From: the human T2T-CHM13v2.0 reference genome, Homo sapiens
DNA length: 64,000 nucleotides
Direction: 5' to 3' (one strand)
NCBI RefSeq assembly: GCF_009914755.1
Contig: NC_060925.1
How positions within the stretch are numbered: the first letter of the stretch is position 1; every line of letters starts with the position of its first letter. Below are positions 311 through 9,009 of the stretch, one piece after another. The position numbers and the translations under genes were made by a program. A model generated the notes under the pieces. The model was not told the origin of the DNA and did not search any database. It worked only from the letters and a program-made list of their open reading frames with translations.

Positions 311-2378
311 GTAAGAAACAATAGTCTTTTACTTTTATATTTATTATCTGTTGGAAAGAAAAGTTTGCCCTCTTTGTATCACTTTCCAGTTATTGTGAAA
401 CTTTATTATACTGTCTCTAAAGTACTCATATATGATCTAAAATGAAATAGTTTAAACACACTTAAAAATTATTTTTGAGCACAGATTTAAAGTGATTTCA
501 TCACCATATGGAAACTTGTGAAAGGGTATTTGGAAGTCCAAGTAGACGCATTGATTCATTTACCCCCCAACAAAGACCTCAATTATCCATATGCTCAATT
601 CACCAAATGCAAAACTTATTTTCCCTCTATTCCGTTCATGTTCTCTCTCCACAGTCAGCACCAAATTCCAGTTGGCTCCTCTGAAACATATGGTATGGGG
701 GTGGGTTGGGGTGTGGGATGAGGGTGGGGGTTATGGCAAGGATGGGGAGAATGAGCTTTTTAATGCTTTTGCATTCCAGTTATCTGAAGAGTTTCTGCTT
801 GGACACCTTTCAGCATAAAAAACTTCCTCTTAACATCTGTATCCAAAAAATAGAGAAAATATTCTAAAGTTGGAGAATGGGAGAAGCCCACTACAGAATA
901 TATATAGATGAAATAAAATGAAAGCTGAGTAATTTGAATGAGTCTTACTACTCTAGAATTTGATGAACAAATAAACTAAATATTTGCCTCATTTTTTCTT
1001 GATAAAAACAAGCACAGGCTAGATGAAAGAAAGCTAGTGTGGGGGGGAATTATGCACTACAATCAGTTGCTACTCATTGTTTTGACTTTATAAATCTTAT
1101 TTTCAAAGCAATATTGGTTTACTAGCAGAGTACAGCAGAAATCAATCATTTCTTGTCTAACTTCTTAATTTTAGTTTTATAAGTTTCTCTTTTATCAACC
1201 TTTTTATTGAACTATAACATACATATAGACAAGTGTACTGTAGCATACATATAGAAACATATAGAAACAGGTATCCATCAGAGAATTTTCACAAAGTGAA
1301 CATTGCCAAAAGTTCAGTCATGACTATTTCAGTCACAATCTTCCTCTCCTAAGGGTAACTCCTGTTCTGATTTCTAACACCATTACTATAGACTAAATGC
1401 ACGTAGACCCCCAAAAAACATTTGTGGAAGCAAATCCCCATTATGGTGATATTAGGAAGTAGGGCCTTTGGGAGTTTATTAGGTCTTAAGGGTGGGACCC
1501 TCATAAGTGGAATTCATGTCCTTATAGAAGAGACTCTAGAAAGCTGTCTTGTCTCTTCTGCCATGTGAGGGTACAGAGGGTAGGCAGCTGTCTATGAACC
1601 GGAAACTGGCCTTCACCAGACAATGAATCTAATGGCACCCGGATCTTGAACTTCCCAGCTTCTAGAACAAGCTTGTCCAACCCTTGGCCTGCAGTCCACA
1701 TGTGGTCCAGTATGGCTTTGAAACACACATTTGTAAACTTTCTTAAAGCATTATGACTTTTTTTTTGCAATTAAAAAAAAACTCATCAGCTATTGTTAGT
1801 TTTAGTGTATTTTATGTGTGGCCCAAGACAATTCTTCTTCCAATGTGGCCCAGGGAAGCCAAAAGATTGAACACCCCGGGATGGTTCCAACATGGCTTAA
1901 TAGGAACAGCTCCAGTCTACAGCTCCCAGGGTGAGCGATGCAGAAGATGGGTGATTTCTGCATTTCCAACTGAGCTTGGAAGAGAGTAGTGGTTCTCCCA
2001 GCACAGAGCTTGAGATCTGAGGACAGACAGACTGCTTCCTCAAGTGGGTCCCAGACCCCCGAGTAGCCTAACTGGGAGGTACCCCCCCGTAGGGGCAGAC
2101 TGACACCTCATACGGACGGGTACCCCTCTGAGATGAAACTTCTAGAGGAACGATCAGGCAGCAACATTTGCTGTTCACCAATATTCGCGGTTCTGCAGCC
2201 TCCGCTGCTGATACCCAGGCAAACAGGGTCTGGAGTGGACCTCCAGCAAACTCCAACAGACCTGGAGCTGAGGGTCCTGACTTTTAGAAGGAAAACTAAC
2301 AAACAGAAAGGACATCCATACCAAAACCCCATCTGTACATCACCATCATCAAAGACCAAAGGTAGATAAACCACAAAG

Positions 2379-3390
2379 ATGGGGAAAAAACAGAGCAGAA
2401 AAACTGAAAATTCTAAAAATCAGAGTGCCTCTCCTCCTCTAAAGGAACGCAGCTCCTCACCAGCAACAGAACAAAGCTGGACGGAGAATGACTTTGATGA
2501 GTTGAGAGAAGAAGACTACAGACAATCAAACTTTTCTGAGCTAAAGGAGGAAGCTTGAACCCAGCGCAAAGAAGTTAAAAACCTTTAAAAAAGATTAGAC
2601 GAATGGCTAACTAGAATAACCAACGCAGAGAAGTCCTTAAAGGACCTGATGGAGCTGAAAACCATGGCACGAGAACTACGTGACAAATGCATAAGCTTCA
2701 GTAGACGATTTGATCAACTGGAAGAAAGAGTATCAGTGATGGAAGATCAAATGAATGAAATGAAGCGAGAAGTTCAGAGAAAAAAGAATAAAAAGAAATG
2801 AGCAAAGCCTCCAAGAAATATGGGACTATGTGAAAAGACCAAAACTACGTCTGATTGGTGTACCTGAAAGTGACGGAGAGAATAGAACCAAGTTGGAAAA
2901 CACTCTGCAGGATATTATCCAGGAGAACTTCCCCAATCTAGCAAGGCAAGCCAACATTCAAATTCAGGAAATACCGAGAACACAACAAAGATACTCCTCG
3001 AGAAGAGCAACTCCAAGACACATAATTGTCAGATTCACCAAAGTTGAAATGAAGGAAAAAATGTTAAGGGCAGCCAGAGAGAAAGGTTGGGTTACCCACA
3101 AAGGGAAGCCCATCAGACTAACAGCTGATCTCTCGGCAGAAACTCTACAAGCCAGAAGAGAGTGGGGGCCAATATTCAACATTCTTAAAGAAAAGAATTT
3201 TCAACCCAAAATTTCATATCCAGCCAAACTAAGCTTCATAAGTGAAGGAGAAATAAAATACTTTACAGACAAGCAAATGCTGAGAGATTTTGTCACCACC
3301 AGGCCTGCCCTAAAAGAGCTCCTGAAGGAAGCACTAAACATGGAAAGGAACAACTGGTACCAGCCACTGCAAAAACATGCCAAATTGTAA
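2379..3390 (+). pseudogene. L1 ORF1p (RNA-binding chaperone), disrupted
   Basis: ATG at 2379 (MGKKQSRK). In-frame stops TGA 2556 and TAA 2586. The C-terminal 186 aa (2830-3390) match ORF1p RRM/CTD. Confidence 0.95.
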
Positions 3391-3453
3391 AGACCATCAA
3401 TGCTAGGAAGAAACTGTATCAACTAACAAGCAAAATAGCCAGCTAACATCATA

Positions 3454-7275
<3,822 letters not shown>

Positions 7276-9009
7276 ACAATGAGTACACTTGCACACAGGA
7301 AGGGGGACATCACACACCAGGGTCTGTTGTTGGGTGGGGGCAGGGGGGAGGGATAGCATTAGGAGATATACCTAATGTAAATGACGAGTTAATGGGTGCA
7401 GCACACCAACATGGCACATGTATACATATGTAACAAACCTGCACGTTGTGCACACGAACCCTAGAACTTAAAGTATAATAAAAAAAAAAAAAAAAAGAAG
7501 ATTGAACACCCCTGCTCTAGCACCATAAAAAATAAATTTCAGTTGCTTATAACTCACCTGGTTTATGGTAATCTGTTATAGCATCCCAAATGTACTAAGA
7601 CAACCAGATATTAATTTTGTCTATTTTAATATTTTATATAAATAAAGTGAAGTTGTACGAATTTTTTCTTTTGTTTCCTTGGCTTGAGATGATGTTTGTG
7701 ATATTTATCCATGTTGTTGCATACAGGAGATACTTTATTGTTATTGCTGTATGTAATGATAATGATGGTATATAATAATTGATTATATCATATTTATTTG
7801 TTTCCAAACCTTGGTTTTTACATTCTTATACATGTATTCTGGTGCATGTGTGAACACATTTTTGGATATATAGCTAGAAATTGAATTTTGTGTAATTAGA
7901 TATGTGTAACAGCCTTAGTAGATAAATCAGCTTTTGTACCTGGTTGTGCCAAATTACATCCTTACCATCAATAAAAGAAATCTTTAGTTTTTTCACATCT
8001 GAACATTTTAGTCCTTCTGGTAATTGTGTAGTGATATCTCATTCTGCCTTTAACTTGCATTTAAAACTTATTAACTGACAAAAATACTTATTGACCATTG
8101 GAATGTCTTCTTTTATGAAACATTTATTCATTTAAATTTTTAAAAAGTAGATTGTATATCTTTTTTCTGAGTTGTAGAAGTTCTTTATTCTAGATATAAT
8201 TCATTTGTTAATAATACATGTAGCAAATACTGTCTCCCACCTTTGGCTTCTCTTACCTCTCTTCTAATGGTATCATTTGGTAAGCAGATATATTTAATTT
8301 TAATGTAGTCCAAGATATAAATTGTTTTCTTCATGATTACTCCCCTTTGTGTCTAGTTTAAAAAATCTTTGCTAACCTGAAAGGCCATGAAGGTATTCTG
8401 CATGTTATATGCTGAAATCTTGAGCCCTCGTATCTTGTACATTAAGATGTATCAAGTCATCTACAGTTAATTTTGGAGGGTAAGGTGTGAGATAGGGGCC
8501 AAGACACACTTTTTTCACATGCATAACCAATTACATAAGCACCCTTTATTTAAATAAAGACTGTCATTTCCTCACTGCTCTGAAACTGCATCTTTGTCAT
8601 AAATAAAATTTTCATATATGTGTGATTGTTTTCTGGAATCTCTGTCTTATTTATTTATTTTATACCAGTTGTATCAAATATTACAGCTTTGTAATAAATA
8701 TAGTTGGATATCTAGTGGTGTTAGACTTCCAATTTTGTTTATTTTCTTCAAGATTTTCTTTGGTTATTTTTAGCTTATGTTTCTATATGAATTTTAGAAT
8801 TATATTGCCAATTTACATTAAAATTGACATTGGTATTAATTGAGATTGCATTCAATCTGTTAATAAATTGCTGAAGAATTGTTGTCTTTACAGTACTGAG
8901 ACTTCTGATGCATGGTCATAAAATATCCCTCCATTTACTTACATCTTGTTTACTCTCAGTAATGTTTTATAGTTTTAAGAGTAGATTTCTTATACAAAAT
9001 AATTAAGTT

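What the first reader, a model, noticed from the sequence alone, without database searches (positions are those of the whole stretch)
1878..2100. L1 retrotransposed from a spliced RNA (SpIRE97/622-type junction at 1974/1975)
Seen: the L1 starts at 1878 and reads ...catttccaactgag|cttggaagagagtagtgg..., with the join exactly after element nt 97. The 5'UTR (1878-2378) is only about 500 bp. Known: in the L1PA consensus, CTGAG is followed by a GT donor at +98, and CTTTGAAGAGAG follows the ...CTGACAG acceptor near +622. Precise GT-AG excision of about 524 nt defines Spliced Integrated Retrotransposed Elements. Inference: this copy lost most of its CpG island, the antisense promoter and ORF0 at birth, so it was probably a transcriptional dead end even though both ORF regions, the poly(A) and a 15-bp TSD are present. 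The class is already described; this copy may or may not be catalogued.
Basis: partly seen in the sequence, partly recalled or inferred. Interest (0 to 1): 0.8.

Follow-up and report, generated by a model that had tools for sequence, protein, structure and literature searches.

The report
Spliced L1PA5 copy (SpIRE97/622), uncatalogued
This is an old, dead LINE-1 copy that was copied into the genome from an RNA whose 5' leader had been spliced; that kind of element was described in 2018, so it is an ordinary new example rather than a discovery.

Summary
Window 1878-7497 (+) is a near full-length LINE-1 with an 18-A tail, flanked by a perfect 15-bp target-site duplication (1863-1877 and 7499-7513). 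Its 5'UTR is 501 nt.

I aligned it to 24 unspliced relatives from the same genome. One block of about 525 nt is missing. The block starts at GT in 22 of 24 relatives and ends at AG in 23 of 24. The join at 1974/1975 matches the published SpIRE97/622 junction (Larson et al. 2018, PMC5860796).

On a tree with 20 published SpIREs, this copy sits on the L1PA5 side of a fully supported split. Both reading frames are now broken; the ORF1 frame has 10 stops.

The copy is not in Larson's list of 116, either by coordinate or by flank text. The T2T genome holds 183 places with this junction motif.

Spliced and unspliced copies interleave on a tree, and this copy has no 5' transduction. That favours splicing of a full-length parent RNA over descent from an older spliced element.

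Primate orthologues could not be checked.

Verdict: real, correctly interpreted, and a new member of a known kind. Interest is low.

In passing, I found a second recurrent junction (97/~315) at 21 places. It is not among Larson's four classes.

The parts
1863..1877 (+). 5' target-site duplication AAGATTGAACACCCC
   Evidence: Identical 15-mer at 7499-7513. It extends to 17 nt with one mismatch.
1878..1974 (+). L1 5'UTR nt 1-97 (the piece upstream of the G98U99 donor). It starts at the canonical L1 5' end, with no untemplated or transduced bases.
   Evidence: Aligns from base 1 to relatives L014, L018 and L019. The 5' ends of other L1PA copies read GGGGTGGTTCCAAGATGG.
1960..1992 (+). Splice junction region; the join lies between 1974 and 1975 (CTGAG|CTTGGAAGAGAG).
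   Evidence: Same junction as the SpIRE97/622 sequences in Larson S1 Data.
1975..2378 (+). Rest of the 5'UTR (from element nt ~622 to the ORF1 start). It includes, at about 2123-2250, the ~129-bp segment that young L1PA1/2 copies lack.
   Evidence: Query bases 96-523 align about 525 nt further downstream in unspliced relatives. The limits of the 129-bp segment were placed by eye against L1Hs/L1PA2 SpIRE sequences in Larson S1 Data. The length class of 5.6 kb versus 5.5 kb comes from the S1 Table.
2379..3395 (+). ORF1 remnant, broken
   Evidence: Translation shows 10 in-frame stops, the first at codon 60. The end coordinate is approximate.
3454..7285 (+). ORF2 remnant, broken into pieces
   Evidence: ORF pieces of 238, 95, 183 and 424 aa. 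The limits are approximate.
7286..7497 (+). 3'UTR and poly(A) tail (18 A at 7480-7497)
7499..7513 (+). 3' target-site duplication

Best explanation
About 20 million years ago a full-length L1PA5 source element was transcribed from its own promoter, starting at L1 nt +1. In a minority of its transcripts the spliceosome removed about 525 nt of the 5'UTR, from the G98U99 donor to the A620G621 acceptor. Both coding regions stayed intact. One such spliced mRNA was reverse-transcribed into this site by target-primed reverse transcription. The bottom-strand nick read TCTT/T (or TTTT/G if the TSD is read as 17 nt), and the insertion left a poly(A) tail and a 15-bp TSD. The new copy was born without most of its internal promoter, so it very probably never served as a source. 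It has since decayed.

Shown here: the anatomy, the exact GT...AG boundaries, the recurrence of the junction, the L1PA5 placement, and the absence of this copy from the published list. Inferred: that the block was missing at birth, the promoter weakness of this particular copy, and the date.
For: 1. One gap with GT/AG boundaries against 24 unspliced relatives.

2. The junction matches the published SpIRE97/622 definition and sequences.

3. TPRT hallmarks are present: a perfect 15-bp TSD, an 18-A tail, and an L1 start directly next to the TSD.

4. The same junction occurs at 183 genomic places against 0 for the control pattern. The boundaries are therefore set by the element's own sequence, not by a local accident.

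5. A full-length ML tree with 20 Larson-labelled SpIREs puts this copy on the L1PA5 side of a split with 100% support. It sits in a polytomy with PA5-96 and PA5-109. Its end branch is 0.044 against a median of 0.031.

6. On a tree of nt 1-97 plus 930 nt after the acceptor, 27 spliced and 22 unspliced copies interleave. The tree needs 13 changes of state against a shuffled mean of 17.2. No sampled copy shares more than 3 of this copy's rare variants.

7. This copy's CTTGG variant just after the acceptor is as rare in unspliced copies (35 against 1427 exact matches) as in spliced ones (1 of 33 exact).

8. Larson's experiments show that intra-5'UTR spliced L1 RNAs can retrotranspose once, and that the resulting 5'UTR is a weak promoter.
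Against: No orthologous primate locus or empty allele could be examined, so absence of the block at birth is inferred, not shown.

The 2-nt AG microhomology at the join would also suit a microhomology-mediated deletion.

The tree has weak internal support: 3 of 48 inner branches are starred. It samples 27 of at least 183 junction places. Its unspliced rows were picked for likeness to this copy's first 97 nt. A close spliced parent among the unsampled copies is therefore not excluded.

Larson did not detect the 97/622 splice by RT-PCR in HeLa cells, so that splice itself is inferred from genomic copies.
Confidence: 0.92

Rival explanations
1. Second-generation copy. The splice happened in an earlier round, and this element was copied from the RNA of an already integrated SpIRE97/622.
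For: A 2025 preprint (10.1101/2025.02.02.635956, passages seen) reports that the L1PA2 SpIRE in RAP1GDS1 produced offspring by using the gene's promoter. Larson allows for this in the Discussion. The SpIRE97/622 5'UTR keeps about 7-fold residual promoter activity.
Against: This copy starts at the canonical L1 5' end directly next to its TSD, with no 5'-transduced host sequence. A parent driven by an upstream host promoter would be expected to leave such sequence. It has no close spliced kin among the 27 sampled: at most 3 shared rare variants, and unspliced copies score the same. Spliced and unspliced copies interleave on the tree.
Confidence: 0.05
2. Post-insertion genomic deletion. A full-length L1PA5 inserted here and later lost about 525 nt through a break repaired on the AG microhomology.
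For: There are 2 nt of microhomology at the join. No orthologue was checked.
Against: Both endpoints would have to fall, within the 2-nt ambiguity, on the same donor and acceptor that are used at 183 other places. For random endpoints within a 5'UTR of about 1 kb this is roughly a 1-in-100,000 coincidence (my estimate).
Confidence: 0.02
3. Reverse-transcriptase template jump. During integration the enzyme skipped from nt 622 to nt 97 on an unspliced RNA.
For: The microhomology at the join.
Against: A jump would not favour GT...AG boundaries or recur at one pair of sites. A second recurrent junction uses the same donor and another AG preceded by a pyrimidine-rich stretch, which points to the spliceosome.
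Confidence: 0.01

Closest known systems
SpIRE97/622 (Larson et al. 2018, PLoS Biol, PMC5860796)
   Same: Same donor (G98U99), same acceptor (A620G621) and same junction text. The deletion is about 524 nt. The length class is 5.6 kb, as for their L1PA4/5 entries. TSD and poly(A) are present.
   Different: This copy is not among their 116 entries. It carries a T-to-G variant three bases after the acceptor.
SpIRE97/853 (same paper)
   Same: Same donor and the same era (L1PA4-6).
   Different: That class uses an acceptor inside the 129-bp segment. This copy keeps that segment whole (about 2123-2250).
SpIRE in RAP1GDS1 that acted as a source (preprint 10.1101/2025.02.02.635956)
   Same: Same 5'UTR deletion.
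   Different: That element is L1PA2 and is driven by a host gene promoter. This copy lies in a gene-free stretch (hub annotation) and shows no sign of offspring or of a host-promoter origin.
Processed pseudogenes
   Same: An intron is removed before reverse transcription by the L1 machinery. TSD and poly(A) are present.
   Different: Here the processed RNA is the L1's own mRNA, presumably mobilised in cis.

Membership tests
SpIRE97/622 | L1PA1-6 element reaching the canonical L1 5' end | tested here: met
   Starts GGGATGGTTCC... directly next to the TSD. Aligns from base 1 to full-length relatives. L1PA5 placement.
SpIRE97/622 | Retained 5' piece ends at nt 97, directly before the GT donor | tested here: met
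   22 of 24 unspliced relatives read GT right after CTGAG.
SpIRE97/622 | Sequence resumes directly after the AG acceptor at about nt 620-621 | tested here: met
   23 of 24 unspliced relatives read ...CTGACAG before CTTTGAAGAGAG. The gap is 522-527 nt in 13 of 24.
SpIRE97/622 | Junction text as in the published copies | tested here: met
   Compared by eye with Larson S1 Data. The pattern search lists this place among the exact matches.
SpIRE97/622 | Hallmarks of target-primed reverse transcription (TSD, poly(A), T-rich nick site) | tested here: met
   15-bp TSD, 18-A tail, nick site TCTT/T or TTTT/G.
SpIRE97/622 | Block absent from the moment of insertion | not testable with these tools
   No primate genomes or human population data are on hand.
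SpIRE97/622 | Weak sense promoter | not testable with these tools
   Known for the class from an L1.3-based construct. This copy was not assayed.

The most novel reading that the evidence does not exclude
The published SpIRE catalogue may be clearly incomplete for the 18-27-million-year-old L1PA4-6 layer. This copy and several of its best matches are missing from the list. The old-type junction occurs at 68 places with up to 1 mismatch, against 42 listed L1PA4-6 entries. A fifth junction class may also exist: the same donor joined to an AG about 217 nt downstream (97/~315), found at 21 places. If both hold, splicing of ancestral L1 RNA was more frequent and used a different set of acceptors than reported.
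Probability: 0.45. Interest if true: 0.3.

Novelty: new member of a known kind. Interest (0 to 1): 0.15.

Why it matters
For this locus, very little. It is a fixed, decayed repeat in a stretch with no annotated gene. Each such copy is a fossil of a germline L1 splicing event, so a complete count helps measure how often splicing disabled new L1 copies in ape ancestors. This copy shows that the 2018 list is not exhaustive.

Tried and rejected
1. A first tree of whole 5' regions split all unspliced copies from all spliced ones with 100% support. This was an alignment artefact: 3188 columns, with intron columns involved. It vanished once the intron was cut out before aligning.

2. I tested whether this copy was missed by Larson because its junction window is too diverged. 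This was not supported. Mean identity of the 100-nt junction window to listed copies is 87.9-93.2% for the 7 copies not in the list (this one 90.7%). It is 87.5-94.5% for the 22 listed copies. Their Methods state an L1.3-based probe and >95% identity. The reason for the miss stays open.

3. I looked for a private spliced lineage marked by the CTTGG variant. The variant is equally rare in unspliced copies, so I rejected the idea.

No L1PA6 or short-5'UTR L1PA3 copy is on the tree, so L1PA6 is excluded only indirectly.

5. Belancio 2006 and 2008 are not held.

7. No tandem repeat was found at 59-64 kb.

Full report
**What is there**

Window 1878-7497 on the + strand is a LINE-1 of about 5.6 kb. 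It begins GGGATGGTTCC..., directly after the 15-mer AAGATTGAACACCCC at 1863-1877. It ends in 18 A (7480-7497), one G, and the same 15-mer at 7499-7513. Read on the bottom strand, the nick site is TCTT/T, or TTTT/G if the duplication is taken as 17 nt with one mismatch. Both forms occur in the site column of Larson's S1 Table.

The ORF1 ATG is at 2379, so the 5'UTR is 501 nt. Both reading frames are decayed. The ORF1 frame has 10 stops, the first at codon 60. ORF2 survives as pieces of at most 424 aa.

**The junction**

A search of the window's own genome with bases 1878-1974 returned 40 scored matches out of 1278 candidates. Thirty of them were kept as loci. One of the 30 is this place itself. 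Of the other 29:
- 2 are spliced like this copy;
- 1 gave no second alignment block;
- 26 aligned in two blocks.

Two of those 26 carry a different junction (described below), which leaves 24 unspliced copies. In these, CTGAG is followed by GT in 22 of 24 (the others read GC and TT). CTTTGAAGAGAG is preceded by ...CTGACAG in 23 of 24 (the other reads TG). The block between the two sites is 522-527 nt in 13 of 24, with a range of 375-543.

This copy therefore lacks exactly one block, bounded by GT and AG. AG ends both the retained 5' piece and the missing block, so the boundary can be drawn in three equivalent ways. That is normal for a splice junction, but it would also allow a microhomology-mediated deletion.

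**Comparison with what is known**

Larson et al. 2018 (PMC5860796) define SpIRE97/622 as L1 copies that lack 524 nt between donor G98U99 and acceptor A620G621. I read sections 6-9, 16, 17 and 21, the S1 Table in full, and part 1 of 13 of the S1 Data. They report 116 such copies in GRCh38, from L1PA1 to L1PA6. Their printed filled-site sequences show ...CATTTCCATCTGAG|CTTTGAAGAGAGCAGTGG.... This copy reads the same apart from three substitutions in that stretch, two of which are shared by all of the older copies I examined.

The class lacks five known transcription-factor sites. In reporter assays its 5'UTR gave about 7-fold over the empty vector, against about 267-fold for the intact 5'UTR. 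The authors regard such copies as evolutionary dead ends.

**Recurrence**

The pattern GCATTTCCAWCTGAGCTTKGAAGAGAG, with up to 2 mismatches, matches 183 places in the genome (98 forward and 85 reverse). The reversed control pattern matches none. These are places, not independent insertions, and some are segmental duplicates.

**Subfamily and age**

I aligned this copy with 20 full-length SpIREs whose T2T positions correspond to Larson entries labelled PA5 (10), PA4 (9) and PA3 (1). The maximum-likelihood tree is a ladder. This copy sits on the PA5 side of a split with 100% support and forms a polytomy with PA5-96 and PA5-109. Its end branch is 0.044 substitutions per site, against a median of 0.031.

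It also keeps the roughly 129-bp segment that L1PA1/2 lack, at about 2123-2250. I placed those limits by eye against the S1 Data.

I call it L1PA5. Larson dates L1PA6 to about 27 million years ago. A date near 20 million years for this copy is my inference from its position on the ladder and its branch length. No L1PA6 reference copy could be fetched.

**Is it catalogued?**

The S1 Table lists 11 SpIRE97/622 entries on chromosome 1. The closest, at GRCh38 114,182,452, corresponds to T2T C1:114,199,778. The two assemblies therefore differ by only about 17 kb in this region, and this copy at T2T 118,359,878 has no entry. Four flank and 5'-end strings from this copy are absent from the S1 Data file, which prints the 5' flank and start of every filled site.

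Six of this copy's best spliced matches (L002, L004, L005, L008, L009, L010) also have no entry, judged by coordinate comparison only.

The old-type junction (CCAAC...AGTAG) occurs at 33 places exactly and at 35 more with one mismatch. Larson lists 42 entries labelled PA4, PA5, PA6 or PA4-6 (my tally). The comparison is rough, because at least one entry labelled PA3 also has the old-type junction.

Divergence of the junction window does not explain the omissions. A search for papers holding both 'SpIREs' and 'LINE-1' found 21, of which 18 were listed. By title and abstract none is a newer catalogue; I read passages of two of them.

**Was the parent a full-length element or an older spliced one?**

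I cut each copy to nt 1-97 plus 930 nt after the acceptor and built a tree of 27 spliced, 22 unspliced and 2 other-junction copies.

Rows dropped before the tree:
- L006, L007 and L029, which duplicate L055, L049 and L047;
- L003, L008, L020 and L024, which are truncated or gave very long branches;
- L031, in which the acceptor motif was not found.

Spliced and unspliced rows interleave. The tree needs 13 changes of state; the shuffled mean is 17.2, and 13 of 500 shuffles are as low. The remaining clustering comes from a PA4 clade in which I had sampled only spliced copies.

No copy shares more than 3 of this copy's rare variants, and unspliced copies score as high as spliced ones. Its CTTGG variant occurs at 35 against 1427 unspliced acceptor contexts, and in 1 of 33 exact spliced junctions.

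The element also starts at the L1's own first bases, with no transduced host sequence. A SpIRE known to have had offspring used a host gene promoter, which would be expected to leave such sequence.

Together these results favour splicing of a transcript from a full-length parent. Internal support on the tree is weak, and only 27 of at least 183 places were sampled.

**What could not be done**

No primate genomes are on hand, so the key test against a post-insertion deletion remains open.

**Seen in passing**

Two of the 26 relatives join the same donor to CAAACGGCACAC. In unspliced copies that sequence lies 217 nt downstream of the donor (15 of 23 rows; 191-216 in the rest) and is preceded by ...GCTTTTCCAATGGTCTTAG. 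The junction pattern matches 21 places, and the control matches none.

Seven loci that I examined have different 5' flanks, full L1 5' ends and 307-308 nt up to the 622 acceptor. The two on the tree are not sisters.

This looks like a further spliced class, 97/~315. It is not among the four classes in Larson 2018. I could not read Belancio 2006 or 2008, so I cannot say that it is undescribed.

**Verdict**

This is an L1PA5-age SpIRE97/622: a new member of a known kind, of low interest in itself.

Noticed in passing
L028 (G000:C15:97146161-97146187), L030/L045 (C10:45033052-45033078), L041-L044, L046; 21 places genome-wide: A second recurrent L1 5'UTR junction. The same donor after nt 97 is joined to CAAACGGCACAC, about 217 nt downstream. 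In unspliced copies that sequence follows ...TCTTAG. The seven loci examined have distinct flanks and full 5' ends. This is a candidate spliced class 97/~315. It is not among Larson's four classes; the older Belancio papers could not be read.
   Followed up: partly
Genome-wide; e.g. L002 C23:94790104, L004 C11:12431844, L005 C18:54778007, L008 C2:145210089, L009 C2:8991699, L010 C2:176205812: The 97/622 junction pattern matches 183 places in T2T-CHM13, against 116 catalogued copies in GRCh38. Several old-type copies have no entry in Larson's table, judged by coordinate comparison. Junction divergence does not explain which ones were missed.
   Followed up: partly
G000:C1:121324187, C1:144089976, C1:205597413 and C4:101635478: Larson's printed empty sites for the SRGAP2B copy (clone 6) and the RAP1GDS1 copy (clone 35) share the same 3' flank. 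This fits the 2025 preprint's report that the RAP1GDS1 SpIRE was a source element. The extra chromosome 1 places may be copies carried along by the SRGAP2 segmental duplications; that link is recalled, not tested.
   Followed up: no
window 1878-2086 and 7287-7497: Both ends of this L1 are left unmasked in NCBI's repeat masking (hub note), although they are plainly L1 sequence.
   Followed up: no
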